64,000 nucleotides of DNA from Candidatus Omnitrophota bacterium (GCA_016208765.1 JACQXK010000009.1:118255-182254); one strand, 5' to 3'; positions 20,031 through 36,323 are shown, counted from the stretch's first letter. Program-made: numbers and translations. Notes: a model not told the origin generated them from the sequence alone.

Positions 20031-20031
20031 A

Positions 20032-21672: not shown

Positions 21673-22878
21673 ATGTATTATAAATTCAGCGTCTTATCAG
21701 AAACAGGAAACGAAATAAACGGTATTGAGCAGGGTTCCTATTCAGAAATAAAGAACAGCTTAAGGCAGAAGAACTATTACATTTTGTCTTTGGAAGCGGA
21801 TTTTTTTAAGTCAATAAGGTTTGCCTTGGAGAAAAAAACAATTAAGGCGCAAACGCTGGCAGTATTTTTTGAGGATTTGGTGAACATGCTAAAAACCGGC
21901 ATTGCCATGAATGAGGCGGTTAGCGCCTTACGGGAGTCGTCTGTTGAGCCCGTCCTGACTAAGGCTTTATCCGGCATTGAGTATGATCTTGTTAACGGTT
22001 TTTCTTTGACTAATGCCTTTAAAGAAACAAAAGTCTTTCCATGGCTGGTTTTAAATATGCTTAAAGTCGGCGAGAAATCCGGCTCTCTTGAGCAGGTATT
22101 CGAGGATTTAGCCAAGTATTATTCCCGGGAGGCGGAATTCCTGAGTAGTTTAAAGAGCGCGGTAATTTATCCAATAATTGTATTCTGCATGCTGGTCGGG
22201 ATAATGTTCTATGTTTCCTTTAAGGTGTTACCTCATTTAGAGGCGCTCTTGCCCATAAGGGGCAATGCTTATTTTTCAACCCGACTGCTTTTATCTTTGA
22301 GCCATTTCCTGAAAGACTTCTGGTTTGTCTGTTTATTGTTTCCGGTTGTATTAGCGTGTATCTATTCAAGGTTTAAGAAAAGCTCGGTTGAAAGAATTGC
22401 ATCATTCTATTACAAGCTTCCCCTGGTAGGTTCTGTGGCTAAAGACGCAGCTATTTCTAACCTTTTTTCTAAGCTCGCGGTTCTCCAAAGAAACGGCATC
22501 AATATCGCTGACGCGCTTTCCTTAATCGAAGAGACTACTTCTTATCAATTTTTAGCTAAGAAAATACAGAAGCTTAATGATCTTATTGTAAGCGGGCTTA
22601 GCTTCTGGCAGGCCCTGCAAAAAGACCCATTTTTCCCAAAGCTTGTTTATACAACTGTCAGAAAAGGCGAGGAGATGGGCTCGCTTGATGAGTATCTGCA
22701 AAGCCTTTCCAAGTATTACTTTGATAAAGTCTCAAGGAGCATACGCGTAATTTTAGGTTTTATCCAACCGGCACTTTTAGTTTTCTGCGCAGCAGTTTTA
22801 TTGTTTGTTGTTTCGGCATTCATCATGCCGGTTTACAGCAATCTTTCAAACATTGCAGGCGGCAATGTTAAGTTTTAG
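21673..22878 (+). CDS. Type II secretion / type IV pilus platform protein (GspF/PilC family)
   Basis: 401 aa; duplicated T2SF domain layout with three TM regions. Translationally coupled to the ATPase (TAAATG overlap). Confidence 0.8.
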   Translation: MYYKFSVLSETGNEINGIEQGSYSEIKNSLRQKNYYILSLEADFFKSIRFALEKKTIKAQTLAVFFEDLVNMLKTGIAMNEAVSALRESSVEPVLTKALSGIEYDLVNGFSLTNAFKETKVFPWLVLNMLKVGEKSGSLEQVFEDLAKYYSREAEFLSSLKSAVIYPIIVFCMLVGIMFYVSFKVLPHLEALLPIRGNAYFSTRLLLSLSHFLKDFWFVCLLFPVVLACIYSRFKKSSVERIASFYYKLPLVGSVAKDAAISNLFSKLAVLQRNGINIADALSLIEETTSYQFLAKKIQKLNDLIVSGLSFWQALQKDPFFPKLVYTTVRKGEEMGSLDEYLQSLSKYYFDKVSRSIRVILGFIQPALLVFCAAVLLFVVSAFIMPVYSNLSNIAGGNVKF

Positions 22879-22894
22879 AGGAGGTGAGGAAAAG

Positions 22895-23320
22895 ATGAGG
22901 AATAGGGGAGGTTTTACGCTGATCGAACTGGTGCTGGTCATAAGCATTATCGCGCTTTTAATCATGGCGGTGGGATTAACTAGCGGCGTACGGGAAAATG
23001 CCAAGGTGCATTCGGCTTCCGAATCAGTCAAGGCATTAAGGACAGCTGCGGAAAGCTACATCGCAGCCGGTAACATGACCTACACCGGGATAACGATTCC
23101 TGGCTTACAGACATTAGGGTACTTGCCTGCCAGTTTTTCTGCAACAGGCTCAAACCCTTGGGGCGGGAATTATGTCATAGCCCCGAATACCGACACTAAT
23201 AAGGTCGATATCTCGCTTACCGGTGTAAGCAGTTCTGCGGCAACAAGGCTTTCGGCTTTGTTTGCTAACAGTGCAGCAGCAACTAGCTATGCATCCGAAA
23301 CATGGACAATAACGTTTTAG
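22895..23320 (+). CDS. Prepilin / pseudopilin (type IV pilin N-methylation site)
   Basis: Short basic leader MRNRG then FTLIELVLVISIIALL (class III signal, Glu+5). GAGGAGGTGAGG RBS before the ATG at 22895. The track ORF starts further upstream at 22805. Confidence 0.7.
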   Translation: MRNRGGFTLIELVLVISIIALLIMAVGLTSGVRENAKVHSASESVKALRTAAESYIAAGNMTYTGITIPGLQTLGYLPASFSATGSNPWGGNYVIAPNTDTNKVDISLTGVSSSAATRLSALFANSAAATSYASETWTITF

Positions 23321-23772
23321 CAAAGCGTGGTTTTAGTTTGGCTGAGCTGAGCCTTGTGCTGATGTTAGTTAACGTATTCATTGCCGTATCTTTTTACTCT
23401 GCGGCAAAGATACGGCAGGCTGCTTCAGCACAAAGGGTAATTGAGGAGCTGGATGCAATAGCTGCAGCAAGTACCAGATATTACAGCGAGCATGGGGCGT
23501 GGCCGGTGAATTTAGCCGACCTGCGCCCCAGCTATCTGGTGCAGCAGTCTAGCGACCTTAATCCCTTTGGCAATGCCTATACAATTACCTCTAATGCTTC
23601 AAGTTTTTCAATATCTACGCTTTTGCCAAAAAACCTAGTTACCAATAAAAGCTACGGCAGCGAGGTTGTGGTTGTAAATCAGGGTAATAATGATCTGGTT
23701 AGCATCACTAAATCACCAGAATCAATAAACTGGAAGTTAAAATATGAGAAGAAGTACATCCATAAACAATAA
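23302..23772 (+). CDS. Prepilin / minor pilin
   Basis: Leader MDNNVLAKRG then FSLAELSLVLMLV. Confidence 0.65.
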   Translation: MDNNVLAKRGFSLAELSLVLMLVNVFIAVSFYSAAKIRQAASAQRVIEELDAIAAASTRYYSEHGAWPVNLADLRPSYLVQQSSDLNPFGNAYTITSNASSFSISTLLPKNLVTNKSYGSEVVVVNQGNNDLVSITKSPESINWKLKYEKKYIHKQ

Positions 23773-24577
23773 AAAGGGTTTTTCTTTAATTGAGCTTTGT
23801 ATAGCGCTTGGGGTTTTGGTTATCCTTACCTCATCCATTACCCCTGTTTTTATCAAGAGAATACAGGTTAAGGCAGGGGAAAAGACTGCGCTGGAGATGT
23901 CGGTAATACAGCAGGCAGCGCTTTCGTATTACGCAGCTAATAATGCTTGGCCTGCGAGTATCCAAGCTTTGCAAAATGCAGGATACCTTAATCCTTCTTG
24001 GTCTGCTAATAATCCCTGGCAGAATGCTTATACTATTTCCTCAACTATCAGCGCTTTTACGGTCTCAACCACTGTGCCTCAGGAGTGGACAAATCTTGTA
24101 GCAAGGGACCTGCCCACTAGTTCTGTATTGGGAACTATCGTCGGCAGTGTTGTGCCTGCGCCTGGCAGCGCTCAAAATGATTCGCTTCCCATAGGTTCAA
24201 TTGTTATCTGGTCAGGTGCTGTTGCTTCCATACCTACTGGTTGGCAGCTTTGCGACGGAACTAACGGCACGCCTGATCTTCGGGATAAGTTTGTGGTAGG
24301 GGCAAGGCAGGATTCAGGCGGTGTCTCAATGACGAATGTTTCCGGTTCATTAACCAAGATTGGAGGGGAAGCAAAACATACATTAACTATTGCCGAGATG
24401 CCTGCACATACGCATTCTTATCGCTGGTGGCCGGGATGGTATTTTTCAGGTAGCTCTGAATACGGCGCAAAAGGCGGCCCTGACGATAACCATCAGACCG
24501 GAAGCGTAGGAGGCGGACAGCCGCATAACATACTGCCGCCTTATTATGCCCTATGCTTTATCATGAAAATCTCTTAA
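23744..24577 (+). CDS. Prepilin with C-terminal phage tail-collar (T4 gp36-like / MdpB-like) domain, putative tip adhesin
   Basis: Leader MRRSTSINNKKG then FSLIELCIALGVLVIL. C-terminal IGSIVIWSGAVASIPTGWQLCDGTNGTPDLRDKFVVGA ... EMPAHTHSY ... NILPPYYALCFIMKI matches the phage tail-collar consensus (GWxxCDG ... PDLRxxF). Confidence 0.65.
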   Translation: MRRSTSINNKKGFSLIELCIALGVLVILTSSITPVFIKRIQVKAGEKTALEMSVIQQAALSYYAANNAWPASIQALQNAGYLNPSWSANNPWQNAYTISSTISAFTVSTTVPQEWTNLVARDLPTSSVLGTIVGSVVPAPGSAQNDSLPIGSIVIWSGAVASIPTGWQLCDGTNGTPDLRDKFVVGARQDSGGVSMTNVSGSLTKIGGEAKHTLTIAEMPAHTHSYRWWPGWYFSGSSEYGAKGGPDDNHQTGSVGGGQPHNILPPYYALCFIMKIS

Positions 24578-26016: not shown

Positions 26017-26741
26017 GAGCATTTATTCTTATGTTTATCCTTTTTTTATCGCACCTTGCTAATGCATCCGCAGAAAGTATCTTTCAGTATAAACGGATTG
26101 ATTTTTTCCGAGAAATAGAAACACAAATAGAACCAGTAACAGCACAAACTAATAATTCTTCCGAAGTTATTACAGAAGAATGGGCTGAACCAATAATTGC
26201 TCCTTCCGGCAAAGTAAATGTCTATGTACCGCCTAAAGAGGTGAGGAATTTCCTGGATAAGCCCGATCCGGATAACGCAAGGGCATACTTACAGTGGAAC
26301 TTAAAGAGGATTAAAAAATTCATCCTTGCGCAGGAATTGCTAAGAAAAGAAGCAAAGGAGCTTGAAGTGATTAAGGAAACGAAAAGCCTGCTTGAACCCG
26401 ATTCTCCAGCAGGATTTAGGGATTCTAGTAGCAATACAAAAGTTGATGTGAGTTATCTGTTCTATTTTATGCTAAAAGGTTGCCCTGTGTGTGAGAAAGA
26501 ATCCCAGGTGATAGAAGACGTCTATCTTAATCATCCAGAAATCAGAATCGAAGCCTTTGCCAAAGGCTTCTCTGACAGGGAGCTAGAAAACTTTAAGTTT
26601 TCTGCCAAGCAAGATTCTGGCATGAGCAGCCTTTTTAAGGTTGAATCATATCCGGCTATTGCAATATTTAACAAAAAGAATAAAAGGTATTTTCTTTCGG
26701 GGTTTGTAGATAAAGAGAGGATACTTAAGCTGCTTAAATGA
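26013..26741 (+). CDS. traF: TraF/TrbB-like thioredoxin-fold protein (CxxC)
   Basis: 242 aa; signal peptide; CPVC redox motif in a thioredoxin-like C-terminal half. Confidence 0.45.
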   Translation: MRAFILMFILFLSHLANASAESIFQYKRIDFFREIETQIEPVTAQTNNSSEVITEEWAEPIIAPSGKVNVYVPPKEVRNFLDKPDPDNARAYLQWNLKRIKKFILAQELLRKEAKELEVIKETKSLLEPDSPAGFRDSSSNTKVDVSYLFYFMLKGCPVCEKESQVIEDVYLNHPEIRIEAFAKGFSDRELENFKFSAKQDSGMSSLFKVESYPAIAIFNKKNKRYFLSGFVDKERILKLLK

Positions 26742-28018
26742 AGAAAATCATTATTTCTTTAGCTTTAATTTCGCTATTAAGAGGTATAAGCTATGCTGAT
26801 ATTTTCTCTAAAGACGATACCACTAGCCCTTATACCATAGACAGCGCTATTTCCGAAGATAGGTCCGGCTTCTATTACCGGGGAGGTCTTGACTACCGGC
26901 CGACTGTTCCGGTTGATGAGCCGGGAGTAGGTTACTCTATCTTAAGTGGTTCAAAAGGATGCAGCGGTTTTGACCTTGCCTCAAGCTTTAACAGCGTTCT
27001 CTCAGAACAGATCCTGGCGGATTATATGAAAGGTATATCCAGCGAAGCAATGGCAGCTGCACCGATGTTATTATTAGAGTATGTTTCGCCGACATTGGCA
27101 GACATCATCAAACACTTTAATGCTATGACTAATATGCGCCTAGGTCTAAGGTATGCCCAATGCGAAGACATCGAGAAGGCAGCCGGGGAATACATGGATA
27201 AGCTAAGGAAAAAGAGTGAGAGCGAGTGCGTTAAAGAAAAAGTAGCAACCGGCCTTGATATTGACTCAGCGCTTAAAGCCTGCAAAGAGGGGAAAGATCC
27301 ATTCGCCTTCCTGAAGAATGCTGAAGGCGTTCCCTTGGCACAGGGAGGAAAAATCGATGTACTTTCAGATATCTTTAAGAAGATAAATATCCCGGGCGAG
27401 AGAAAAGATTTTGTCAAATCAGTGGTAGGCGAGACCACCATCACCTCATCACAGATTGAGAACAACAAAGGAGAAAAATCCATCTATAAGGTAAACGATG
27501 AGTTTAGGTCTGAAACTTCCGATAAGTTTCTCTCTCTTTTCAATGAATACCTGAATTCAAAAACTGTATCCAGCGATTCATTAAAAGGCCTGTCCTTACA
27601 CAATAATCCGGTGACAGAGGAACAGATTAGAGATATAGCTTTGATGCCTAAGGCAAAACAATATATAGCGATTTCCAAAATTTCCTCTGACATAGCTTAT
27701 TTTAAGACTGTCTCCCAATACAGGCAGGCTATGGATGATTTATTAGAGGCAATGCGCGCGCCTGGCTTAGATGATGTGCAAAGAGGCGTGCTTGAGCGGG
27801 ATTATAATTACCTGAAAGAGAAACTGGAAAGATTCAAAGAGGAAAGAGAGATTTATAAAGATTACAACGAAGCCGTAGCCGGTATCTTATCGGAATCAGA
27901 AAAAGAAAAGCTCAATACCATTATAAATGATGATGGAACAAGCTCGTATTTCAACGATACTACTGAAACGCAGGATAAAAAAGAGATGTACCTGTCTGCT
28001 ACGGAAGAAAAGGAGTAA
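26738..28018 (+). CDS. traH: TraH (F-type pilus assembly)
   Basis: 426 aa; signal peptide. GxGC.GxD...SF segment (SGSKGCSGFDLASSF) resembles F TraH (NAGCGGIDAFLGSF). Coiled-coil C-terminus. Confidence 0.45.
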   Translation: MKKIIISLALISLLRGISYADIFSKDDTTSPYTIDSAISEDRSGFYYRGGLDYRPTVPVDEPGVGYSILSGSKGCSGFDLASSFNSVLSEQILADYMKGISSEAMAAAPMLLLEYVSPTLADIIKHFNAMTNMRLGLRYAQCEDIEKAAGEYMDKLRKKSESECVKEKVATGLDIDSALKACKEGKDPFAFLKNAEGVPLAQGGKIDVLSDIFKKINIPGERKDFVKSVVGETTITSSQIENNKGEKSIYKVNDEFRSETSDKFLSLFNEYLNSKTVSSDSLKGLSLHNNPVTEEQIRDIALMPKAKQYIAISKISSDIAYFKTVSQYRQAMDDLLEAMRAPGLDDVQRGVLERDYNYLKEKLERFKEEREIYKDYNEAVAGILSESEKEKLNTIINDDGTSSYFNDTTETQDKKEMYLSATEEKE

Positions 28019-28091: not shown

Positions 28092-28958
28092 CTATGCAGA
28101 TTTACGAAAGTAAAACCCTTCTTTGAAATAAGGGTGTTTTTTTAATAGTTCAACCCTACGTAAGTTGAGATTGGATAGTCCATTTCTCACGGTTTCCTCG
28201 TAATATTTTTCTCGATTTCCTACCAATTTGTTCTTTCCGTTAAAAAATGTTTCAAAGATTATATGTTTGATTCTTATAAAATCATCTTTAATTATAGCAT
28301 TGATTGCAAGCAATGAGTCTAATATATGCACCATTCTTAAGCAATTATCTCGATGATAAGTAGGATCAATCGATGAAAGATGTGCCCAAATATGTCGGTT
28401 AAAATTTAATAATGGCAAATCGGATCTTCTTCGTACCTGTTTATATAAAGTATTAGAAAGTAAAGTAAGTAGATTTTCTACGATGTAAGTGAGAAGCGGT
28501 TGTAATTCAGGGCGTCCTGCGCGTAGAGACATCATTCTTTGAATATTACTATTGTCTATTCGAACGAATTCCCTTTCTCCTATTAACTGGAGGATGATGC
28601 CTTCTGGCAAGGGAGTCAATACTCCCTCACAAGTAATCAAGTTTAAGTCATACAACTCTAGAAGACCGATTTCAACCAAGTGCGAGAATTTATCTATTGG
28701 CTGAAGATTACAGTATCCTTCTTCTATCAATATGGCCCGAAATTTATAAAGAAGTGTATTAACAAATATCTCATCGGCAATCATCTTCCCGTAATGTTCT
28801 TTATCTCTTAGGGTGGGCGTTCCAGGAAGGCGTTTGATAAAATCAATAAATTTTGGCTTTACAAACTGAAAAAACCAAAAAGGAGATATAACCCATTCAT
28901 ACTTAGTTAATTTTACATTGGCCAAATTATATGATTCAAAGAGTTCTCCATCAGTCAA
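28092..28958 (-). CDS. Hypothetical protein on opposite strand (possible Abi-like defence gene)
   Basis: 288 aa; no motif recognised with confidence. Its 3' end abuts a 46-bp duplicated segment. Confidence 0.25.
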   Translation of the reverse strand: MTDGELFESYNLANVKLTKYEWVISPFWFFQFVKPKFIDFIKRLPGTPTLRDKEHYGKMIADEIFVNTLLYKFRAILIEEGYCNLQPIDKFSHLVEIGLLELYDLNLITCEGVLTPLPEGIILQLIGEREFVRIDNSNIQRMMSLRAGRPELQPLLTYIVENLLTLLSNTLYKQVRRRSDLPLLNFNRHIWAHLSSIDPTYHRDNCLRMVHILDSLLAINAIIKDDFIRIKHIIFETFFNGKNKLVGNREKYYEETVRNGLSNLNLRRVELLKKHPYFKEGFYFRKSA

Positions 28959-29340
28959 TATTGTCTCCTTTTTTATATATAACTTTATGGCATAGAAACT
29001 AGCTGATTCTATTGGAATTGCATAAAATTACATATTTTAGAATGCACAGGTAAAATTATATCAAAGATTGAAAAAATTGTCATTTAGATTTTGTCGTGGT
29101 GGCCACACGATTCACTTTAGCGGCTGAAATTTTTCTCTGTTTATTAGAGAACCTATCCTATGGCAGGCCTTATAAATTCTTCAGTTATCGTTTCTGAATT
29201 GGACTACAAACCATTACAGGAACGTATTTTCTCTTCTATAAAATTTTTACTATCTGTTTTGCAGTTTTTTCGATACACTAACCTTTTCTTCGATCAGACA
29301 GCTTCCTTTTCTCATTTTTTATTTTTTCTTGTCTTCAGTA

Positions 29341-29675
29341 ATCCCCTTTCTTTTTATCCGCCTACAATAACCCAAGCCTGACTTTTGCTCAAGAAAATCC
29401 TTCGGAAAAATTCATCTCTGCCTAAAAAGCCTTTTCGTGGTTTGCCTCGGAAAGGCTTTTTTGTCATCAGAAGTATTCTGCCCCTATAGGGGAGTCTCAA
29501 TTTTTCCAAAGGACTCCCAAGAAGGTCGCTCGTTTGGCTCTCGCTTCCCTTCGGGCATGTCTGTTTTTTTGACAAAAGACCGTATTTTCTGTGGTGTGCC
29601 TCAAAAAATACTTCAATTTCTTGGGTTTTAATTTTCGGCGTCAAAAGAAAGGAGGCTTACATGAGCCAAGTAAAA
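29341..29675 (+). promoter_or_regulatory. Copy 1 of a ~320-bp duplicated leader/promoter module (ends in RBS + ATG + MSQVK)
   Basis: About 80% identical to 33190-33512. Contains TTGACT/TTGACA boxes, the hairpin GGGAGTCTCAATTTTTCCAAAGGACTCCC, and a conserved AAAGAAAGGAGGCTTACATGAGCCAAGTAAAA end. Confidence 0.6.
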
Positions 29676-29963
29676 ACAAAACAAAAAACAAATCGAAAGG
29701 AGGTGAATACTATGATTGAAGTAGCCAGAGTTTATAAAGTCGAAAAAGACGAGAGCTCCCTGAAGGCCTTTGTTGACATTAAAGTCGCTGACGCGGTTTT
29801 AATCAAAGGTATCAGGGTTATGGCTAAAAAAGACGGCGGGCTGTTCGCAGCTATGCCATCCCATTTAGCTGGCGACGGTAAGTATTACGATACCGTTCAA
29901 TTCTTAACGCCTGAGGCAAAAACCGAATTGCAAGAAGTGGTTCTTGCAGCCTACGAGGCTTAA
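29661..29963 (+). CDS. spoVG: SpoVG-family nucleic-acid-binding protein
   Basis: IKGIRVMAKKDGGLFAAMPSHLAGDGKYYDTVQFLTPEAKTELQEVVLAAY parallels B. subtilis SpoVG ([47 protein letters not shown]). An internal Met at 29712 with an AGGAGG RBS is the probable true start. Confidence 0.65.
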   Translation: MSQVKTKQKTNRKEVNTMIEVARVYKVEKDESSLKAFVDIKVADAVLIKGIRVMAKKDGGLFAAMPSHLAGDGKYYDTVQFLTPEAKTELQEVVLAAYEA

Positions 29964-30021
29964 AGAATTTAAAAACTTTAAAAGCTGTCCTATCGGCTAT
30001 ACGGGGGAAAGGAAAGATAAA

Positions 30022-30255
30022 ATGAACTTAAACGAACTAGAGAACGAAAAGACAAAAATTAAGCTTGCAGGGGAAGAGGTAGAGGTTAAAACTTCTGATT
30101 CCGTAAAGGATACCTTAACAAGGCTCCTTAAGGAAAAAGGCATTGATTCTTTTACCATTTTGGTTGACGGAGAAGAAGTTACCTCTACCGATGACTTGCC
30201 GGCTACTTTTGACGGTCATGATATCGAAGTTGAAAGATACGTCAAGGCAGGTTAA
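30022..30255 (+). CDS. Small beta-grasp ubiquitin-like protein (Ubl) with C-terminal Gly
   Basis: 77 aa. Alternating hydrophobic pattern of a beta-grasp fold (KIKLAGEEVEVK ... FTILVDGEEV). Ends ...VERYVKAG. First gene of an E2/E1/JAB cassette. Confidence 0.5.
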   Translation: MNLNELENEKTKIKLAGEEVEVKTSDSVKDTLTRLLKEKGIDSFTILVDGEEVTSTDDLPATFDGHDIEVERYVKAG

Positions 30256-30325
30256 ATAAAAAAGCCAAAGGAGAGGGAGAGATTCTTTTCTCCCTCTCCT
30301 AAAGTTTAATAAGGAGCTTGAGAAG

Positions 30326-30913
30326 ATGATAGATACGGAATTAATCACAAAAGCAAAGAAAAAATCAACATTAATTGAAAAGATTGACGCCTCTTGGCGG
30401 GAGTTTACGGAAAGCTTAAAAGAAGGTATCTTTACGGTTCCTTTTACCGGAGGTTACAGATGCGTAATCAAGGAAGATGATATGCTTATTGAGGGCTATT
30501 CTGGTCTATTGCTCATAGATAAGGTCTACTATAGCCATAAGACCTATTCTTTAAAGATACCTGTCAAATATTACCCTTTTAAAATTTACGGCATCTATGA
30601 CCAAGGTGGCTGCTTTATTGCGTTTGTTTCAGAGCCGGAGATAGGCTTCCACTATTTGGGTATGAGCGATAAGGGGCATACCATCTGCACCGGAGAGATT
30701 CAATACCTTAACCCTGAATCTTTAGGCTTGCTCAAAGAAGCCTGCTTAAAGATAGCCAAGTCATTCAGGGTAATCAACCTTGAATCCTTAGGAACCGTAA
30801 TCTTACCCGAGAGATTCTCAAATTTAAAGAACATCCTGTCAAATAAAGATAAAGATGTATCATGCAAATTTTCGGAATTGGATAAGCAAGGTCTGATTGA
30901 GCGGATCATTTGA
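30326..30913 (+). CDS. E2-like (UBC-fold) conjugating enzyme candidate
   Basis: 195 aa; HYLGMSDKGHTICTGEI resembles the UBC HPN...Cys catalytic segment. Sits between the Ubl and the E1. Confidence 0.4.
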   Translation: MIDTELITKAKKKSTLIEKIDASWREFTESLKEGIFTVPFTGGYRCVIKEDDMLIEGYSGLLLIDKVYYSHKTYSLKIPVKYYPFKIYGIYDQGGCFIAFVSEPEIGFHYLGMSDKGHTICTGEIQYLNPESLGLLKEACLKIAKSFRVINLESLGTVILPERFSNLKNILSNKDKDVSCKFSELDKQGLIERII

Positions 30914-31854
30914 AGGAGGATAAAACTATGCCACAAGAAGCTATTTATGAACGACAGAGATTAATAGAAGGTCTAGAAATACCCGAAGTCGCCTCGGTAG
31001 TAGGCTGTGGCGGAACGGGTTTCTGGACTGCTCTTCTTCTTTCCATGTCAGGAATTAAAGAATTGATCTTGGTTGATACCGATATAGTTGAGGTATCCAA
31101 TCTGAACAGGCTGCTTTTACAGGAAAGCTCTGTAGGAAAGAAGAAAGCAGAAGCCCTAAAAGAACTCATATCCGGCATAAGAAAAGAAATAAGGATTGAG
31201 ATTCAGGATATGCGTATCGAAAAGCCCATAGACTGCCAGATATTACGTGGAGATATATTTTGCTGCACGGACAACTTAAAAAGCCAGCAGATTATCTGCG
31301 CTTTCTGCAAAAAGAACGAACTTGCCTACCAAAGAATTGGCTATGACGGCACAATCCTGAATGTTTCAAAGACCTTCCCGCTTTCCTTAAAAGATACAGA
31401 TGAGGATCGGGGCTATACAATTACTCCTTCCTGGGTGATTCCTGCGGTATTTGCCGCGGCAGCCGGAGTTTCATCACGCACTTACAAGGAACTTTGCCTT
31501 ATGGATGATATCGGGAAGGTTCATATACAGCATTCTTCTCATATCTGTCGCAAAATTTTAGACGATGCGAGAATCGAAGGCGAGGATAACATTATTGATA
31601 ACATCGAAGACCATATACCTGATAACTACGGTTACTGTGATGATTGCTCAAGGATTGACCCTGACGGCTCTGATTACGGATACTGTCCTGACTGTGAAGA
31701 ACATTACAGCGATGACGATATAGAGGACATAAAAGAAAAAGCAAAGAATGAGGAGTACGACCGGATAATCGGGGAGATTGAGGCAGGAGAGATTACTGAC
31801 CCAAAGTTATTAGAAGCCATTAGAAAATGGGCAAAAGCAAAAGGAGGAAAATAG
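30910..31854 (+). CDS. E1-like activating enzyme (ThiF/MoeB/UBA superfamily)
   Basis: Rossmann motif VVGCGGTGFWTALLLSMSGIKELILVDTDIVEVSNLNRLLL (GxGxxG ... D.D.V..SNLNRQ). Acidic Cys-rich C-terminal tail (CDDC...CPDC). Confidence 0.75.
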   Translation: MKEDKTMPQEAIYERQRLIEGLEIPEVASVVGCGGTGFWTALLLSMSGIKELILVDTDIVEVSNLNRLLLQESSVGKKKAEALKELISGIRKEIRIEIQDMRIEKPIDCQILRGDIFCCTDNLKSQQIICAFCKKNELAYQRIGYDGTILNVSKTFPLSLKDTDEDRGYTITPSWVIPAVFAAAAGVSSRTYKELCLMDDIGKVHIQHSSHICRKILDDARIEGEDNIIDNIEDHIPDNYGYCDDCSRIDPDGSDYGYCPDCEEHYSDDDIEDIKEKAKNEEYDRIIGEIEAGEITDPKLLEAIRKWAKAKGGK

Positions 31855-31855
31855 A

Positions 31856-32668
31856 ATGTTTACGTTAGAAGATACTAAAACCAAAAAAAGCAATATTTTA
31901 GATGTAAGGATAAAAAATTACGGGGAATGTGGTTTTTGTACTGACCATGACCACAAAGAAACTCTAAAGATACCTTGGAATATCTGGAGTCAGTGGCAGT
32001 ATATCAGTCAGCGCATACAGGATAAGGAATGGGGCGCTATATTTTGGGTTAAGGATAATACCATAACGAGCTTTAAAATCCCAAAGCAGGAGGTAGGCTC
32101 AGTAGACTGTGAATTCAAGGAAGAATTAGGGGGTGATGGCATAATCCATTCGCACCACGATATGGGAGCGTTTCATTCATCGCAGGACGATGCCCACGCG
32201 CGCAATCTCTACACTTACAGCATAGTTATAGCTAATTCCAAGGGAAGTATTGCTACAAAAAGAGTAAAGCTACCCTGTAACGGCTTTGGCTACGTCAAAA
32301 TAAGCTTAAAACTGGTTGAATTACCTGAGATAGATCTTTCAAAGATAAGCGAAAGAACAAGGGAGTTAATTCCAGAGGCGACCTCAGAATTTGAAGAAAG
32401 CGAGCATCCTTGCGACAGTTGTCAAACCGGCGACTGCGAGAACTGCGAACACTTAGGTATGCCTTATCTAGCTTGCCAGACCTGTGATACCTTTAAATGC
32501 AAATCGTGCAAGACAACCGCCGGTCTGGACATCCGGGGTGTGCTTCCTTTTTGCGAGCTCTGTAATGGCTCTGATATTTGTGCTTCCTGCGAAAGAATCG
32601 CAAAATACCTTAAAAATTACCCAGAAGAGCGAGGTCATTTACAAACTCCAGTTGAGAGCCAGGCGTAG
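31856..32668 (+). CDS. JAB/MPN (JAMM) metallopeptidase with C-terminal Cys-rich zinc-ribbon region
   Basis: Exact JAMM motif H-S-H-x7-S-x2-D in IIHSHHDMGAFHSSQDD plus upstream Glu. C-terminus has ~16 Cys in CxxC pairs. Confidence 0.7.
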   Translation: MFTLEDTKTKKSNILDVRIKNYGECGFCTDHDHKETLKIPWNIWSQWQYISQRIQDKEWGAIFWVKDNTITSFKIPKQEVGSVDCEFKEELGGDGIIHSHHDMGAFHSSQDDAHARNLYTYSIVIANSKGSIATKRVKLPCNGFGYVKISLKLVELPEIDLSKISERTRELIPEATSEFEESEHPCDSCQTGDCENCEHLGMPYLACQTCDTFKCKSCKTTAGLDIRGVLPFCELCNGSDICASCERIAKYLKNYPEERGHLQTPVESQA

Positions 32669-32873: not shown

Positions 32874-33074
32874 ATGAAAGTTGATAATTGGGTTGACGAA
32901 TTACGAAATCAGTTAAGAAGCTTCGACGCGGAAACCTTAGACAGCGAAATGAAAATGGCTGATATAACGCTGGGCTATGTTGATACGCAAGGCCTAATTC
33001 ATTACCACAAAATTGAATACAGGGCAAAAGGATTTGAGAAGAAGCCGGTCCTAAACCAGCCCTTACAGAGCTAA
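32874..33074 (+). CDS. Hypothetical small protein (66 aa)
   Basis: ORF with GGGAGAG RBS; no motif recognised. Confidence 0.2.
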   Translation: MKVDNWVDELRNQLRSFDAETLDSEMKMADITLGYVDTQGLIHYHKIEYRAKGFEKKPVLNQPLQS

Positions 33075-33189
33075 AATTTACGCATTAAAATTCAGGCAGT
33101 GGATGGCCAAAATATTCGGCCTTTCCATAGCTACGCGCTTTTCTCTTCATCCTCAAATTTTCTTTTCTGTTTTTCCTTGCCGTCACGTA

Positions 33190-33512
33190 ATCCTCTTTCT
33201 TTTTCTCGCCTTAAAAATAGCCCAAGATTGACTTTTGTGCAAGAAAATCCTTTGGAAAAATTCACCTCTACCTTGTCTTTGCGGTTTGCCTCAAAGGACA
33301 AGGTATCAAGGATATCCTGCCCCTTCGGGGAGTCTCAATTTTTCCAAAGGACTCCAGGAAACTCGCTCACTTGGGCGTTCGCTTCCTTTCGGGCGTATCT
33401 GTTTTCTTGACAAAAGACGTGATTTTTGTGGGTTACCTCAAAAATCACTTCAAATCATTGGGCTTATATTTTCGGCATCAAAAGAAAGGAGGCTTACATG
33501 AGCCAAGTAAAA
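33190..33512 (+). promoter_or_regulatory. Copy 2 of the duplicated leader/promoter module
   Basis: Direct repeat of 29341-29675, including the GGGGAGTCTCAATTTTTCCAAAGGACTCC hairpin and the RBS+ATG+MSQVK start. Confidence 0.6.
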
Positions 33513-33791
33513 AAAGAAATATTAAAGAAAAACGAAAAATTTGAGGATGGGATGCTGCGCACGGATGCCTGCATGGAAAGGCATCTGGGCAGCCGTAATT
33601 CTCAATACAGGACCTATTCAGAGGATCTGTCGCAGAATTCCTTCGGTTTTTCCGCTGTCTGGGAAGAAAGACATCTTATGAAAGACGTCTACAATCTCAT
33701 CAACAAGGGCTTTAAGCCAAACGGTTCTGAAACTCTGGAAACCTTTGTTGAGAAACATCGGGATTTGCTTGATGAAGAAGGTGATTTCTAA
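33498..33791 (+). CDS. Hypothetical protein (97 aa) driven by leader copy 2
   Basis: Starts with the same MSQVK codons as the spoVG-region ORF and then diverges. No recognisable domain. Confidence 0.3.
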   Translation: MSQVKKEILKKNEKFEDGMLRTDACMERHLGSRNSQYRTYSEDLSQNSFGFSAVWEERHLMKDVYNLINKGFKPNGSETLETFVEKHRDLLDEEGDF

Positions 33792-34006
33792 TGCAGGAGT
33801 TTAAGAAGGTTACAACTAATGAAGTAACTGAAAAATTAACCATGGGCCAGATTGAGAAAGTCTGGCAGCGGGTTGATGCAAGAAAAGAGCAGGATTCAAA
33901 TCAGCTTAGCCTGCAGGTTTTTTGGTTTGCAGGGGTAGAGGTTTGGGTAATAGATGAAGGTGGTATTACTACAATGATGTTTCCTAACGAAAATAAGGAG
34001 GAATGA
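33791..34006 (+). CDS. Hypothetical small protein (71 aa)
   Basis: Overlapping stop/start (TAATG) with the upstream ORF. No motif recognised. Confidence 0.25.
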   Translation: MQEFKKVTTNEVTEKLTMGQIEKVWQRVDARKEQDSNQLSLQVFWFAGVEVWVIDEGGITTMMFPNENKEE

Positions 34007-34336
34007 AAATGTGGATACAAAAAGACAACTTAAAAAAAGAAATAACCTGGGAGCGAATTTTGGATTGGGTAGTAATTGACGGAGTCTTGTGGGTGGAAAT
34101 TCAAGAAAAGGAGGTGAAAGACGTATGTATAGTCCAGTGTTAAGCGAAACAATGGTTAAGACGCTGTATAGGCTGAAATACAGCCAGGATAAGCCGATGA
34201 CTGTGGTGGTTGAGAAGTTGCTTCTGCGCTCGATAGCATCTATAGACAAAGGGCCGGTGTGTGAGAAATGCATCAGTGAAAACAATAATGATTGCAGGAA
34301 TTGTTACCTATCCTGTATTACAAAGGAGGTTTCAAA

Positions 34337-34677
34337 TGTTAACAGAAAATGAATTAAGGCAATTTAGCGGAACAGAGCATTGGTATAAACATTTAAGCGG
34401 GTATCTTTACACTGATGGCATTCAATATGTCGCGCAAGAAGGTGGTGCATTTTGGCTAATTGATAAAGTATTGTTTATGACCAGAGCGAAAAATAATTTA
34501 CAGGAATTTGGCGTTTGGAAGCTTAAGGTTAATGAAGATAGATCGGCAACACTAGTGTGCGAAGACGGTAATTACCATGAGCTCTATCGAGAGAAGATTG
34601 AGTGGACAGATTTTCCGCTGAAAAGAATTGAATTATGGTTTGAAAATGGCGTTTTAATACTGCCAAGCGAACATTAA
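34337..34677 (+). CDS. Hypothetical protein (113 aa from the internal Met at 34337)
   Basis: AAAGGAGG RBS before the ATG at 34337. The longer track ORF begins at 34261. No motif recognised. Confidence 0.3.
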
Positions 34678-34874
34678 AGAAAAAGACTGAAAAATATGTA
34701 ATTAAGCGGACTACGAAGATTGCTACTAATCCGACAGAAAAATATTCTTAGAGGTATTAGGTTGTAGTTTTAATAGTTTTATTGTAGAGGAATTGTTTGA
34801 CGAATAAGAAATTAGGTTTATAATTAGATTTAGACTGTTATAATATGTTACAAAAGGTGTAAACCTATAAAAGA

Positions 34875-35066
34875 ATGAAAGAATCTATTGAAGTATATAC
34901 AGTTGAAGAGCTTGCAAAGGCCTTAAAACTGCATCCTTATACTATCAGACGTTTATGCCGGGAAAACAAGATCCCGGCTTTTAAATTTAGCGGCCAGTGG
35001 CGGTTTAACAAAGACTCAATAGCTAAATGGGCAAAGGAAAGAGAGAAATTATATTATAAGAAATAA
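34875..35066 (+). CDS. Excisionase / MerR-like HTH_17 DNA-binding protein (Xis-like)
   Basis: 63 aa, YTVEELAKALKLHPYTIRRLCRENKIPAFKFSGQWRF (helix-turn-helix of the excisionase/HTH_17 type). Preceded by TTGACG...TATAAT promoter-like elements at about 34797-34830. Confidence 0.5.
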   Translation: MKESIEVYTVEELAKALKLHPYTIRRLCRENKIPAFKFSGQWRFNKDSIAKWAKEREKLYYKK

Positions 35067-35081
35067 GACAGCTTAGAAAAT

Positions 35082-36323
35082 ATGCTCAACAAAAGAATTG
35101 TTATTACTGGAATAGGCGTAATTTCTCCGATAGGTATTGGTAAGGACAAATACTGGCAAAGCCTTTTTGAGGGAAAGTCAGGAATAAAACCAATTACGCT
35201 TTTTGATGTTTCAGGGCTTAAGGTTAGAACCGGCGGAGAGATTAGTAATTTTAATCCTAAAGAGATTTTAGGTGATAGCAATCTGCGTACTTTAGATAGG
35301 GCTACTTTACTGCTTGCCTCAAGCACTAAATTAGCCATCGATGACGCAAAACTGGAAATTAATAAAGAGAACAACCGGCAAATAGGAGTATCTGTTGGTA
35401 CCACCTTCGGTAGCTTAAATAGTATCTCCGAGTTTGATAAGGCTTCAGTTACTGACGGTCCGCGTTATGTCAACCCTTCGGTTTTTCCCAACACTGTATT
35501 TAACTCTCCGGCAAGCCAGCTCTCCATTCGATTTCATATCAAAGGATTCAATACTACTATTTCATCTGGTATGTGCGCTGGGCTTGATGCCATAGACTAT
35601 GCAAGAGATTTTTTATATCGCGGCAGAGCCAAAACCATTATTTGTGGTGCAGTTGAAGAATTTTGCATTCAAACATTCCTCGGTTTCTATAAATTAAACT
35701 ATCTTGCCGGACTAAAAAATAACTCTGAGCCAGTATCTTGCCCTTTTGATAAGCGCAGAAATGGTATTGTTTTCTCAGAGGGTGCTACAACCCTGATGTT
35801 GGAAAGCTTGGACGATGCTTCATTCCGTAAAACTAAGATTTACACGGAAATCCTCGGTATTGGATCTTATTTTGATCCCTACCGTCTGACTAAATATAAC
35901 CCTGAAGGTAAAGGAATGAAGCAGGCAATGCACTTAGCACTTAAGGATGCGGGCCTTAGTCCGCAGGATATTGGTTGTGTTTTTGCTAATGCTAATTCTA
36001 CACAAGACGCAGATAAATTTGAAACTCAAGCCGTAAAAGATGTTTTTGGTTCTTATGCTGATAAAATACCTATTGTTGCTGTTAAGTCTATGCTTGGCGA
36101 GACATTCAGTACGGGCGGAGGCCTTGCAGTCATAGCCGCCATAGGCGGTATAAATAATGGCTTTATCCCCCCAACTATTAATTATAAAAAGAAAGATTTG
36201 GGATTAGATTTGGATTATGTTCCAAATAAGGCGCGGAAATTTAATATAAATACGGCTATGGTAAATACCTTTGGTCAGAATGGCTGGAATAAAAGTTTAA
36301 TTATCGGCAGACGCAAAAAATAA
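35082..36323 (+). CDS. Beta-ketoacyl-ACP synthase-like protein lacking the His-His dyad (CLF-like partner subunit)
   Basis: KAS fold with Cys in TISSGMCAGLDAIDYA. Positions of the two catalytic His read ANANST and GETFSTGG instead of HGTGT / GHxxGAAG. Confidence 0.65.
   Translation: MLNKRIVITGIGVISPIGIGKDKYWQSLFEGKSGIKPITLFDVSGLKVRTGGEISNFNPKEILGDSNLRTLDRATLLLASSTKLAIDDAKLEINKENNRQIGVSVGTTFGSLNSISEFDKASVTDGPRYVNPSVFPNTVFNSPASQLSIRFHIKGFNTTISSGMCAGLDAIDYARDFLYRGRAKTIICGAVEEFCIQTFLGFYKLNYLAGLKNNSEPVSCPFDKRRNGIVFSEGATTLMLESLDDASFRKTKIYTEILGIGSYFDPYRLTKYNPEGKGMKQAMHLALKDAGLSPQDIGCVFANANSTQDADKFETQAVKDVFGSYADKIPIVAVKSMLGETFSTGGGLAVIAAIGGINNGFIPPTINYKKKDLGLDLDYVPNKARKFNINTAMVNTFGQNGWNKSLIIGRRKK

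What the first reader, a model, noticed from the sequence alone, without database searches (positions are those of the whole stretch)
29661..32668. Complete ubiquitin-like conjugation cassette (Ubl - E2-like - E1 - JAB/JAMM) at the end of the transfer region, preceded by SpoVG
Four consecutive, tightly spaced genes. The first is a 77-aa beta-grasp protein ending in Gly. The second is a 195-aa protein with a UBC-like H...C segment. The third is a ThiF/MoeB-type E1 (GCGGTG ... SNLNRL). The fourth is a JAMM peptidase (exact HxHx7Sx2D) with a long Cys-rich zinc-ribbon tail. This composition matches the prokaryotic E1/E2/Ubl/JAB systems predicted by comparative genomics and recently shown (Bil-type systems) to act as antiphage defence by conjugating Ubl to phage tail proteins. 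Here it sits inside the IR-bounded conjugation module and is co-transcribed downstream of a SpoVG-family nucleic-acid-binding gene and a long structured leader. Its substrate might therefore be a transfer component, for example the tail-collar pilin or relaxosome proteins, rather than a phage. That is inference only.
Basis: partly seen in the sequence, partly recalled or inferred. Interest (0 to 1): 0.85.

Follow-up and report, generated by a model that had tools for sequence, protein, structure and literature searches.

The report
New ubiquitin-like tagging cassette on ICE
A conjugative element of an uncultured Omnitrophota bacterium carries a four-gene ubiquitin-like protein-tagging kit whose E2-type enzyme belongs to no described family, placed behind a DNA hairpin that looks like a promoter active only on incoming single-stranded DNA.

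Summary
Four tightly spaced + strand genes follow a SpoVG-family gene. They encode a 77-aa protein ending in Gly, a 195-aa protein with invariant His109/Cys121, a ThiF-type E1 and a JAMM peptidase with the exact HxHx7SxxD motif.

- **Ubl.** All 120 family representatives end in invariant Gly plus zero or one cap residue.
- **E1.** It is a single adenylation domain with no Cys in the crossover loop but an invariant Gly-Tyr (120/120), as in Bub E1s.
- **Family.** It is not Bil, Bub, CBASS or PRTRC, but a new variant of the bacterial Ubl-conjugation kind.
- **Distribution.** The Ubl-E2L-E1-JAB order recurs wherever contigs are long enough, almost all Omnitrophota, usually downstream of TraH.
- **"Structured leader".** It is a conserved ~320-nt hairpin, present twice, and more stable on the template strand in 63/64 copies. 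I read it as a Frpo-like single-strand promoter (inference), which would place the cassette among early "leading-region" genes.

Targets and role remain unknown.

The parts
29330..29665 (-). Hairpin element 1. A ~320-nt imperfect end-to-end hairpin whose base contains the RBS and the ATG at 29661. Candidate Frpo-like single-strand promoter.
   Evidence: ssDNA fold: - strand -68.5 kcal/mol (z -8.4), + strand -59.1 (z -6.2). Over 13 aligned copies, 97.8% of cells are paired against 39-54% in slid controls, with 7 compensatory pairs. The - strand is more stable in 63/64 metagenomic copies. TTGxxC-N17-TATTGT lies on the 3' arm in 52/64.
29661..29963 (+). SpoVG-family nucleic-acid-binding protein. 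First gene after hairpin 1. A second ATG with a strong RBS lies at 29712.
   Evidence: Pfam SpoVG 3.2e-17, 62.9 bits. It lies upstream of the Ubl gene in most loci, downstream of JAB in L013, and was not detected in L003, L011, L014 and L015.
30022..30255 (+). 77-aa ubiquitin-like modifier candidate ending in Gly77 (codon 30250-30252).
   Evidence: All 120 family representatives end YVK[A/P]G plus nothing (52) or one residue (C 63, R 2, G/M/Y 1 each). The phage-like homologue L019 ends VKAG-LN. No profile hit. The beta-grasp fold was not tested structurally.
30269..30300 (+). Conserved GC-rich stem-loop between the Ubl and E2-like genes. Possible attenuator or stabiliser that would give Ubl in excess over the enzymes (inferred).
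   Evidence: A stem of 10 to about 19 pairs (most 12-15) is present in 34 distinct loci. The stem sequence covaries in divergent loci (L003, L013, L014, L057).
30326..30913 (+). E2-like protein (E2L) of a previously undescribed family. UBC-type fold with invariant His109 (30650-30652) and Cys121 (30686-30688).
30928..31854 (+). ThiF-type E1 adenylating enzyme with a single domain. The crossover loop has no Cys but an invariant Gly162-Tyr163 (Tyr codon 31414-31416). The C-terminal part has a CxxC...CxxC zinc ribbon and an acidic helical tail.
   Evidence: Pfam ThiF 6e-24 over the Rossmann half. PDB relatives match through that half only. GY in 120/120 and loop Cys in 0/120. Invariant columns. 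Identical 308-aa NCBI protein P0334.
31856..32668 (+). JAMM/JAB metallopeptidase (Glu58; H98xH100x7S108xxD111 at 32147-32188) with a C-terminal tail of six CxxC pairs.
   Evidence: Pfam Prok-JAB 29.1 bits against cut-off 25. The motif is invariant in 14 homologues. In L011, L012 and L017 the reading frame ends before most of the tail (L014 keeps only its end), so it is accessory. Weak B-box-like matches only.
32874..33074 (+). Conserved 66-aa ORF after JAB, function unknown.
   Evidence: 71-88% identical in L001, L005-L010 and L018. No family hit.
33180..33502 (-). Hairpin element 2, about 80% identical to element 1. It includes the same RBS and 'MSQVK' start.
   Evidence: - strand -76.0 kcal/mol (z -11.9), + strand -68.1 (z -10.0)..
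33498..34677 (+). Second hairpin-driven operon: orf98 (33498-33791), orf71 (33791-34006), orf87 (34089-34352) and a DUF6876 protein (about 34336-34677).
   Evidence: Pfam DUF6876 3.3e-43. The order is conserved in the longer genome loci (L001, L006-L010) and in many metagenome contigs.
34875..35066 (+). HTH_17 (excisionase/AlpA-like) small DNA-binding protein. Last element-type gene before KS/oxidase/kinase genes.
   Evidence: Pfam HTH_17 3.3e-16. Downstream genes.

Best explanation
This is a self-contained ubiquitin-like protein-conjugation module of a previously undescribed family. It is a backbone component of conjugative elements of Candidatus Omnitrophota.

**Proposed chemistry**
1. Where the Ubl gene encodes one residue after Gly77 (usually Cys), the JAMM peptidase removes it. 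In this window Gly77 is already terminal.
2. The single-domain ThiF-type E1 adenylates Gly77.
3. The E1 has no cysteine in its crossover loop. The activated Ubl therefore passes to Cys121 of the UBC-fold protein either through an oxyester on the invariant loop Tyr163 (as shown for Bub E1s) or directly from the adenylate. His109 assists.
4. The E2-like protein transfers the Ubl to lysines of target proteins.
5. The JAMM peptidase can reverse the mark. Its Cys-rich tail and the E1 zinc ribbon are candidates for partner or substrate recognition.

**Shown here:** gene content, motifs, conservation, fold of the E2-like protein, synteny.

**Inferred:** every chemical step and the targets.

**Favoured role (about 0.45 on its own).** The operon and its neighbour operon each sit behind a ~320-nt hairpin that folds best on the template strand. 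This hairpin brings a -35-like and a -10-like hexamer to 17-nt spacing only when folded. A MobC-like relaxase candidate lies next to the coupling-protein gene, and all genes share one orientation. Together these fit a leading-region module transcribed from the incoming single strand. The cassette would then act early in the recipient, in establishment or counter-defence, rather than as classical host immunity.
For: **Composition and motifs**
- SpoVG, ThiF and Prok-JAB are all above Pfam cut-offs.
- The exact JAMM motif and Glu58 are invariant in homologues.
- The E1 ATP and Mg motifs are invariant.

**Ubl**
- Gly is invariant, with a 0-1 residue cap in 120/120 representatives and a 2-residue cap in L019.

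**E2L**
- H109 and C121 are the only invariant columns across 45 members down to 18% identity.
- The model has pLDDT 95 and the topology helix / four-strand meander / Cys loop / three helices.

**Linkage**
- The Ubl-E2L-E1-JAB order recurs in the genome loci wherever the contig is long enough.
- E2L homologues of only 23-32% identity still sit beside an E1 that is 50-63% identical to this one. One of these contigs is phage-like.

**E1 loop**
- Gly-Tyr in 120/120, Cys in 0/120.
- Precedent for a Tyr oxyester in a Cys-less E1: PMC11601596.

**Element context**
- F-type tra genes, a coupling protein and a type IV pilus module lie at 4396-28018.
- TraH lies upstream of the cassette in 9 loci besides the window.

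**Hairpins**
-.
- All 59 informative copies precede one of the two operons.

**Relaxase candidate**
- 6036-6809 matches MobC at 1.4e-9.

**Frpo concept:** PMC11541004.
Against: **E2 assignment**
- It rests on one method. Foldseek against the PDB finds nothing significant (best E 0.075).
- hhalign against canonical E2s gives 2.6% probability.
- No HPN motif is present.
- I could not inspect the superposition to confirm that Cys121 overlies the E2 catalytic Cys.

**Ubl**
- Profile comparison with ThiS/MoaD/CysO gave nothing.

**Role**
- No conjugate, target or activity is known.
- The MobC hit is far below its curated cut-off (37.7 against 200 bits).
- No oriT, integrase or att repeats were found.
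- The T-strand is inferred, not known.
- The -35/-10 hexamers match the consensus only 3-4 of 6.
- Most of the G:T excess comes from three fixed positions, two of which overlap the start-codon region.
- The + strand RNA would also fold strongly, so an mRNA leader or an antisense RNA is not excluded.
- The hairpin has no sequence similarity to plasmid Frpo elements in PLSDB.
- In L001 restriction-modification and other defence-type cargo sits next to the cassette. That would suit a defence role equally well.
Confidence: 0.6

Rival explanations
1. Same chemistry, different role. The cassette is an antiphage (Bil-like) defence system carried as cargo by the conjugative element. It would tag a phage structural protein during infection of the host.
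For: Characterised Ubl/E2/E1/JAB operons (Bil) and the related CBASS type II act in phage defence, and Bub operons are associated with defence regulators (PMC11601596). The E1 hits PADLOC Cap2 'E1-E2' models through its Rossmann half. In L001 the cassette lies next to Vsr, a DNA methylase, a GHKL ATPase and a type IIG restriction enzyme. Mobile elements often carry defence cargo.
Against: No PADLOC, NCBIfam or Pfam model of Bil, Bub, CBASS or 6A-MBL is met. The cassette holds a fixed backbone position with conserved hairpins rather than sitting in the variable cargo spot, which lies between TraH and hairpin 1. Distant members occur on a phage-like contig with a small terminase. No CapW/BrxR or CapH/CapP-type regulator was seen among the ORFs scanned.
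Confidence: 0.22
2. An E2-independent or non-conjugating system. The Ubl would be a ThiS/MoaD/CysO/QbsE-type sulfur carrier, or a SAMP/TtuB-type modifier, activated by the E1 alone and trimmed by the JAMM peptidase. The 195-aa protein would be an unrelated partner, substrate or adaptor.
For: The E1's best NCBIfam and PDB matches are ThiF, TcdA, MccB, PaaA and MoeB. About half of the Ubl genes encode Gly-Cys at the end. From general knowledge, that is the form of the CysO-cysteine adduct cleaved by the JAMM enzyme Mec+, and it recalls QbsE/QbsD. Archaeal SAMPylation needs no E2. No sequence profile calls the 195-aa protein an E2.
Against: All ThiF/MoeB equivalog scores are far below cut-off (for example 71 against 159 bits), and only the Rossmann half matches. 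No rhodanese domain, cysteine synthase, thiazole, molybdopterin or siderophore gene is present among the ORFs at 28-35 kb. The setting is a mobile element. The 195-aa protein has a UBC-type fold with an invariant His/Cys pair and is always adjacent to the E1, even at 23% identity.
Confidence: 0.1
3. The cassette acts in the donor and modifies components of the transfer machinery (pilin with tail-collar domain, relaxosome) to regulate conjugation.
For: It lies immediately after the tra/pil genes in the same orientation. It co-occurs with TraH in 9 further loci.
Against: No direct evidence. The Collar hit of the pilin is sub-threshold (19.5 against 24 bits). A cargo hot spot and a separate hairpin element separate the cassette from TraH. 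Distant relatives occur without tra genes on a phage-like contig.
Confidence: 0.08

Closest known systems
Bil systems (BilA Ubl, BilB E2, BilC JAB, BilD E1; class 6d of Iyer, Burroughs & Aravind 2006, PMC1779556)
   Same: Four separate genes for a Ubl, an E2, an E1 and a JAB peptidase. The Ubl C-terminal Gly is exposed by the peptidase. The E2 has a catalytic Cys. No E3 gene is present.
   Different: Bil E1 is a tandem inactive/active adenylation protein with a mobile Cys domain (PMC11601596). This E1 is a single 308-aa domain with no loop Cys. According to Iyer et al., class 6d E2s lack the His before the Cys. Here the invariant His precedes the Cys by 12 residues. No profile for known defence systems is met. 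Gene order and setting (conjugative-element backbone) also differ.
Bub systems (6E/DUF6527; BubA/B/C/D/E), PMC11601596
   Different: Bub E2s use Ser, whereas here Cys121 is invariant. Bub proteins are fused (Ubl-E2, JAB-E1 or E2-E1) and come with a DUF6527 serine protease. Here all four are separate and no DUF6527 gene is present.
PRTRC cassettes (ParB-related, ThiF-related cassette; TIGR03735-03741) of plasmids and ICEs
   Same: A ThiF-family protein plus a JAB-like protein (PRTRC_A) on conjugative elements. Function uncharacterised.
   Different: Scores are far below cut-offs (ThiF 12.9 against 144.75 bits; PRTRC_A 20.2 against 101.8). No PRTRC_B to F model was matched and no ParB was seen. 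The host phylum differs.
Frpo/ssi single-strand promoters of plasmid leading regions (Masai & Arai 1997; Samuel et al. 2024, PMC11541004)
   Same: A long imperfect hairpin of about 300 nt directly upstream of early genes. The genes are oriented for transcription from the strand predicted to be transferred. The -35 and -10-like hexamers lie in the stem, with the -10 at a partly open junction. There are several copies per element.
   Different: No sequence similarity to plasmid elements. The hexamers are weak. The transferred strand and oriT are not known. The downstream genes (SpoVG, Ubl system, DUF6876) are not among those reported for leading regions in that paper's main text.
Archaeal/bacterial E2-less Ubl systems and JAMM-linked sulfur carriers (SAMP/UbaA/HvJAMM1, TtuB/TtuC, CysO/Mec+, QbsE/QbsD)
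   Same: A small modifier with C-terminal Gly, sometimes capped. A single-domain ThiF-type E1. A JAMM peptidase.
   Different: Those systems have no UBC-fold partner. They are chromosomal and tied to sulfur metabolism or general protein modification, and the terminus is usually Gly-Gly.

Membership tests
JAMM/MPN+ (Prok-JAB) metallopeptidases | Upstream Glu plus HxHx7Sx2D zinc site; profile above cut-off | tested here: met
   Glu58, H98, H100, S108, D111, invariant in 14 homologues. PF14464 scores 29.1 bits against cut-off 25.
ThiF/E1 adenylating enzymes | Rossmann ATP site (GxGxxG), Arg finger, Lys, Mg-binding Asp | tested here: met
   GCGGTG, SNLNR, GKKK and CTDN are invariant. PF00899 6e-24.
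Canonical E1 (thioester-forming) | Catalytic Cys in the crossover loop or in an inserted CYS domain | tested here: not met
   The loop NVSKTFPLSLKDTDEDRGYTITPSW has no Cys in 120/120 representatives, and Gly-Tyr is invariant.
UBC/E2 superfold | N-terminal helix, four-strand antiparallel meander, Cys loop, crossover helix, C-terminal helices | tested here: met
UBC/E2 superfold | Recognisable by E2 sequence profiles (Pfam UQ_con, Prok-E2_A to E) or HPN motif | tested here: not met
   No Pfam hit for 45 members at E<=1. hhalign against five canonical E2s gives 2.6%. The motif is GFHY, not HPN.
UBC/E2 superfold | Invariant Cys structurally equivalent to the E2 catalytic Cys | tested here: inconclusive
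Ubiquitin-like modifiers | C-terminal Gly, free or behind a short removable cap | tested here: met
   120/120 end in Gly plus 0 or 1 residue. L019 has a 2-residue cap.
Ubiquitin-like modifiers | Beta-grasp fold | not tested
The only hints are a sub-threshold Pfam RBD hit (E 0.03) and a precomputed RBD tag on P0214. hhalign against ThiS/MoaD/CysO was negative.
Bil (BilABCD) | E1 with tandem IAD-AAD plus CYS domain | tested here: not met
   Single 308-aa adenylation domain with no loop Cys. Definition from PMC11601596.
Bil (BilABCD) | Antiphage activity through tagging of a phage tail protein | not testable with these tools
   Needs experiment.
Bub (6E/DUF6527) | DUF6527 serine protease; fused Ubl-E2, JAB-E1 or E2-E1; Ser in the E2 active site | tested here: not met
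   No DUF6527 hit among the ORFs at 28-35 kb. All four genes are separate. The E2L Cys is invariant.
CBASS type II (Cap2/Cap3) | E2-E1 fusion with a CD-NTase and an effector | tested here: not met
   Only the Rossmann half matches the PADLOC E1-E2 models (residues 29-108 against positions ~300-450 of ~580). There is no fusion and no CD-NTase.
PRTRC | TIGR03736 ThiF, TIGR03735 protein A and the other PRTRC proteins above cut-off; ParB homologue | tested here: not met
   12.9 against 144.75 bits and 20.2 against 101.8 bits. No other PRTRC model was hit.
ThiS/MoaD/CysO sulfur-carrier pathways | E1 meeting a ThiF/MoeB/MoeZ equivalog, a rhodanese or sulfurtransferase, and adjacent biosynthetic genes | tested here: not met
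   Best equivalog 71.4 against 159 bits. No rhodanese domain and no biosynthetic neighbour.
Frpo/ssi single-strand promoters | Long hairpin on the transferred strand carrying -35/-10 elements, upstream of leading-region genes | tested here: inconclusive
   Hairpin and covariation are met. The template strand is favoured in 63/64 copies, and TTGxxC-N17-TATTGT occurs in 52/64. The transferred strand is inferred only from a sub-threshold MobC hit. No homology to plasmid elements.

The most novel reading that the evidence does not exclude
Conjugative elements of Omnitrophota, and some phage-like relatives, carry a ubiquitin-like conjugation system that is switched on from the incoming single strand by hairpin promoters. 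It works in the recipient cell during the first minutes after entry, tagging host defence or DNA-processing proteins, or the element's own proteins, to secure establishment. That would make it the first Ubl-based counter-defence or establishment system. Its relay would also be chemically mixed: a tyrosine oxyester on a Cys-less E1 handing over to a cysteine thioester on a UBC-fold protein of a new family.
Probability: 0.22. Interest if true: 0.9.

Novelty: new variant of a known kind. Interest (0 to 1): 0.66.

Why it matters
Bacterial ubiquitin-like conjugation has so far been tied to phage defence (CBASS type II, Bil, probably Bub).

- **New combination.** This variant has a UBC-fold enzyme that no profile library recognises. 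It also combines a Bub-like Cys-less, Tyr-bearing E1 with a Cys-bearing E2. It could show how thioester and oxyester relays interconvert.
- **New setting.** The cassette sits on the mobile element's own backbone, behind what looks like a single-strand promoter. If so, Ubl tagging would be a weapon or tool of the invader rather than of the host. The leading-region concept would also extend to a little-studied, largely uncultured phylum.
- **New search models.** The family gives new models for finding divergent E2s, and the hairpin gives a new structured DNA/RNA family. Rfam has no match in the window.

Tried and rejected
**No hit for the E2-like protein or the Ubl**
- Pfam, NCBIfam, PADLOC and PHROGs all gave nothing.
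- Sequence searches of the PDB with the E2L profile and the Ubl profile gave only chance hits: haemagglutinin and phycoerythrin.

**Structure-based searches**
- Foldseek against the PDB was uninformative.
- The afdb50 library was unavailable.

**Profile-profile comparisons**
The Ubl alignment had very low diversity.

**Database searches for relatives**
- PLSDB plasmids: no DNA or E2L protein match, and only generic ThiF hits for the E1.
- GenBank phages: no E1 match.
- IMG/VR: no relative of E2L.
- Rfam: nothing in the window. No tRNA genes.

**Element ends**
- A search for att-type direct repeats between 2950-4420 and 34600-35120 found nothing longer than 11 nt. The ends of the element are therefore undefined.
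- I considered that the truncated comM at 3642-4145 marks an insertion whose other half lies to the right. No N-terminal comM fragment was seen among the larger ORFs I scanned in the window.

**Rejected reading**
- I rejected a MITE or REP reading of the hairpins. All 59 informative copies sit in one orientation directly on the start codon of one of two operons.

Full report
**1. What is in the sequence**

Between 29661 and 32668 there are five consecutive + strand ORFs.

- **SpoVG-family protein, 29661-29963.** Pfam 62.9 bits against cut-off 29.6. The NCBIfam SpoVG equivalog is not reached (47.7 against 108 bits).
- **77-aa ORF, 30022-30255.** It starts at an ATG behind an RBS and ends ...RYVKAG-stop.
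- **195-aa ORF, 30326-30913.**
- **ThiF-family protein.** Pfam 6e-24, matched over residues 30-138 only.
- **JAB protein, 31856-32668.** Pfam Prok-JAB 29.1 bits against cut-off 25. It carries Glu58 and H98-x-H100-x7-S108-xx-D111, followed by six CxxC pairs.

The E1 start is ATG 30928, with AGGAGG 8 nt upstream, not TTG 30910. An identical 308-aa protein is in NCBI as 'ThiF family adenylyltransferase' of a Candidatus Omnitrophica MAG, on a 220.5-kb contig.

**2. The host and the element**

Named homologues are almost all from Candidatus Omnitrophota MAGs.

Upstream of the cassette lie the following:
- TraG_N (4396)
- a coupling protein (6793)
- TraE, a CagX-like protein, TraB/TrbI and TraC
- a secretin, a T2SSE ATPase, T2SSF and two N-methyl pilins
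- TraU, TraF and TraH (26738-28018)

ORF 6036-6809, just before the coupling protein, gives a sub-threshold match to MobC 'replication-relaxation' relaxases (1.4e-9; 37.7 against 200 bits).

To the left are housekeeping genes, an IS200-type transposase and a truncated comM. To the right, after an HTH_17 gene (34875-35066), come ketoacyl synthases, an amine oxidase and histidine kinases. These recur beside the cassette in other genomes at only 25-38% identity in most loci (71% for two genes in L007), which makes them look like chromosomal flank.

I found no integrase and no att repeats.

**3. Conservation of the cassette**

In the genome loci the order Ubl-E2L-E1-JAB is the same wherever the contig is long enough. 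Short contigs hold part of it. Protein identity runs from 50 to 97%.

- SpoVG precedes it in most loci. It follows JAB in L013 and was not detected in L003, L011, L014 and L015.
- A second module usually follows: orf66, orf98, orf71, orf87, DUF6876.
- TraH and the preceding tra/pil genes lie upstream in nine further loci.
- The space between TraH and the cassette varies. In L001 it holds Vsr, a DNA methylase, a GHKL ATPase and a type IIG restriction enzyme. In L031 and L057 it spans 8-12 kb.

The cassette is therefore backbone, and the spot before it is a cargo site.

**4. The 77-aa protein**

No profile library recognises it. PDB sequence search and hhalign against ThiS/MoaD/CysO are negative.

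The informative feature is the C-terminus:
- All 120 cluster representatives end YVK[A/P]G followed by nothing (52) or one residue.
- The cap residue is Cys in 63, Arg in 2, and Gly, Met or Tyr once each.
- The divergent homologue on L019 ends VKAG-LN.

An invariant Gly at the mature end behind a short variable cap is the signature of ubiquitin-like modifiers and their precursors.

This is the main gap in the case.

**5. The 195-aa protein (E2L)**

*Sequence.* It has no hit in any library, alone or for 45 family members. An exhaustive HMM search of 1.84 billion representatives found only 93 relatives. Across 45 members, down to 18% identity, the only invariant columns are His109 and Cys121. 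Pro39, Pro79, Gly123 and Ser154 are nearly invariant. All 120 close representatives keep H...C.

*Model.* A model from close homologues was mediocre. One from the diverse alignment reached pLDDT 95 and pTM 0.82. Its elements run in this order:
1. helix 15-33
2. four long antiparallel strands
3. a loop carrying Cys121
4. helix 133-146
5. helices 162-172 and 178-187

*Against.* Foldseek finds nothing significant. hhalign against canonical E2s gives 2.6%. There is no HPN motif.

I conclude that a UBC-type fold with a His...Cys pair in the expected place is likely. It belongs to a family not previously described. I could not verify the equivalence of Cys121 with the E2 catalytic residue.

**6. The E1**

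The ATP and Mg motifs are invariant. PDB and NCBIfam relatives (PaaA, TcdA, MccB, ThiF, UBA5, E1s, BubCD) match only through the Rossmann half, and all curated cut-offs are missed by a wide margin.

The crossover loop, NVSKTFPLSLKDTDEDRGYTITPSWV, has no Cys in 120 of 120 representatives. Gly162-Tyr163 and Pro-Ser-Trp-Val are invariant.

The only Cys residues conserved in all relatives are C103 and C112/C113, next to the Mg-binding Asp. C124, C127 and C190 are lost in distant members.

Ye et al. (PMC11601596) showed that Bub E1s likewise lack a loop Cys. They use an invariant loop Tyr to form a Ubl~Tyr oxyester, which is passed to a Ser on BubB. Here the E1 looks Bub-like but the E2-like protein keeps a Cys. 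Whether Tyr163 forms an intermediate, or Cys121 attacks the adenylate directly, is inference.

The E1 is also much better conserved than E2L. E1s next to E2L homologues of 23-32% identity are still 50-63% identical to the window E1.

**7. Linkage beyond the close family**

Three distant E2L homologues were located on contigs.
- Each has a ThiF gene downstream, directly in L019 and L020. In L021 it follows a second, tandem E2L paralogue.
- L019 also has the Ubl homologue, a small terminase subunit gene and many tiny ORFs, so its context is phage-like.

No relatives were found in IMG/VR, GenBank phages or PLSDB.

**8. Which known system is it?**

| System | Result | Basis |
|---|---|---|
| Bil | No | Single-domain, Cys-less E1 |
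| Bub | No | No DUF6527 protease, no fusions, Cys rather than Ser |
| CBASS type II | No | No E2-E1 fusion, no CD-NTase |
| PRTRC | No | 12.9 against 144.75 bits and 20.2 against 101.8 bits |
| Sulfur-carrier pathway | No | No rhodanese or biosynthetic partner; equivalog cut-offs missed |

It belongs to the general kind predicted by Iyer et al. 2006 (PMC1779556), who already noted that such operons ride on conjugative elements. I therefore rate it a new variant of a known kind.

**9. The 'structured leader'**

The ~340 nt before SpoVG are repeated before orf98 at about 80% identity. The repeat includes the RBS and the 'MSQVK' start codon.

*Fold and conservation*
- Each copy folds end to end into one imperfect hairpin.
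- In 13 aligned copies, 97.8% of cells pair, against 39-54% when partners are slid.
- There are 7 compensatory pairs in 29 cells, and no shuffle out of 500 reaches the covariation score.

*Which strand folds*
- The - strand, which is the template for the downstream genes, is the more stable. This holds in 13 of 13 aligned copies and in 63 of 64 distinct metagenomic copies, by a mean of 9.2 kcal/mol.
- On the - strand there are 50 G:T cells against 11 A:C cells.
- Three fixed positions supply most of that excess, and two of them overlap the start-codon region.

*Where the copies sit*
- The conserved core occurs in 74 metagenome contigs.
- In all 59 copies with enough downstream sequence, the next genes are the SpoVG-type or the orf98-type operon.

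*Promoter-like features*
- On the 3' arm of the - strand hairpin, TTG(C/A)(A/G)C-N17-TATTGT is conserved in 52 of 64 copies.
- It points toward the genes.
- On the opposite arm a 37-nt side hairpin is looped out. In duplex DNA the TTGACA at about 29567 and the -10-like TTTAAT at 29627-29632 are therefore 54 nt apart. This is my reading.

This matches the logic of Frpo/ssi single-strand promoters of plasmid leading regions (PMC11541004). There is no sequence similarity to plasmid elements.

*Fit with transfer polarity*
- If oriT lies near the MobC-like gene and the relaxase enters last, the transferred strand is the - strand.
- The two hairpin operons would then be among the first genes to enter. 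This assumes the element circularises between the HTH_17 end and the TraG_N end.

These steps are inferred. An mRNA leader that hides the RBS, or an antisense RNA, cannot be excluded.

**10. Other regulatory detail**

A stem-loop of 10 to about 19 pairs (most 12-15) lies between the Ubl and E2L genes (30269-30300). It is present in 34 distinct loci, and the stem sequence covaries in divergent ones. Most copies have no U-tract on the + strand. I suggest it lets the modifier accumulate in excess over the enzymes. This is inference.

**11. Verdict**

| Claim | Probability |
|---|---|
| Real Ubl-E2-E1-JAB conjugation module of a new family on a conjugative element | about 0.75 for the chemistry |
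| Early-expressed leading-region function | about 0.45 |
| Antiphage cargo | about 0.22 |
| E2-less or sulfur-carrier reading | about 0.1 |

Interest is moderately high. A specialist would be surprised by three things: the unrecognised E2 family, the Bub-like E1 paired with a Cys E2, and the hairpin-promoter context. No activity or target is known, and two key folds or alignments remain untested.

Noticed in passing
window 29330-29665 and 33180-33502: Two ~320-nt hairpin elements about 80% identical, each overlapping the RBS and an 'MSQVK' start codon. They are conserved with covariation in more than 64 distinct copies and more stable on the template strand. Rfam has no match in the window. 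Many metagenome contigs end inside this repeat, probably as assembly breaks.
   Followed up: yes
window 30269-30300: GC-rich stem-loop between the Ubl and E2-like genes. It is conserved in structure with sequence covariation in 34 loci, mostly without a U-tract.
   Followed up: partly
window 6036-6809: 257-aa ORF directly upstream of the coupling-protein gene. It has a sub-threshold match to MobC 'replication-relaxation' relaxases (1.4e-9; 37.7 against 200 bits) and no Pfam hit. It is the only relaxase candidate seen in the element.
   Followed up: partly
window 3064-4145: An IS200-type transposase (3064-3639, -) lies next to a 167-aa C-terminal fragment of a ComM/Mg-chelatase-like gene (3642-4145, -), just left of the first transfer gene. 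comM is a known island insertion site. No N-terminal fragment was seen among the larger ORFs scanned.
   Followed up: partly
window 15873-24577: A type IV pilus-like set is embedded among F-type tra genes: a secretin with an STN domain, a T2SSE ATPase, T2SSF, and two N-methyl pilins, one with PilS/bundlin-like matches and one with a sub-threshold phage tail-collar match. This is a hybrid mating apparatus.
   Followed up: no
window 28092-28958 (-); L001 1-8800; L031, L057: The stretch between TraH and hairpin 1 is a variable cargo site. It holds an unknown 288-aa ORF on the opposite strand here. In L001 it holds Vsr, a Dcm-type methylase, a GHKL ATPase and a type IIG restriction enzyme. In L031 and L057 it spans 8-12 kb.
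   Followed up: partly
L021 149-1257; P0214; L019 2613-2867: Family variants: two tandem E2-like paralogues before the E1 (L021); a 110-aa Ubl with an internal duplication (P0214); and a phage-like contig with a small terminase whose Ubl ends VKAG-LN (L019).
   Followed up: partly
P0193 (2954 aa): A giant protein matches E2L residues 122-180 (crossover helix to third helix) in nine separate stretches (E 2.7e-7). This part of the fold may exist as a repeat module elsewhere.
   Followed up: no
window 47586-61478: A single 4630-aa ORF on the + strand, followed by a 405-aa ORF with no family hit. Not examined.
   Followed up: no
window 31856-32668 (residues 186-245) and 30928-31854 (residues 237-256): The JAB protein carries six CxxC pairs, with weak B-box-like matches only (E 0.48 and 9.1). 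The E1 carries a CxxC-x12-CxxC ribbon followed by an acidic helical tail. In L011, L012 and L017 the JAB reading frame ends before most of its tail, and L014 keeps only the end. These could be RING/B-box-like recognition modules.
   Followed up: partly
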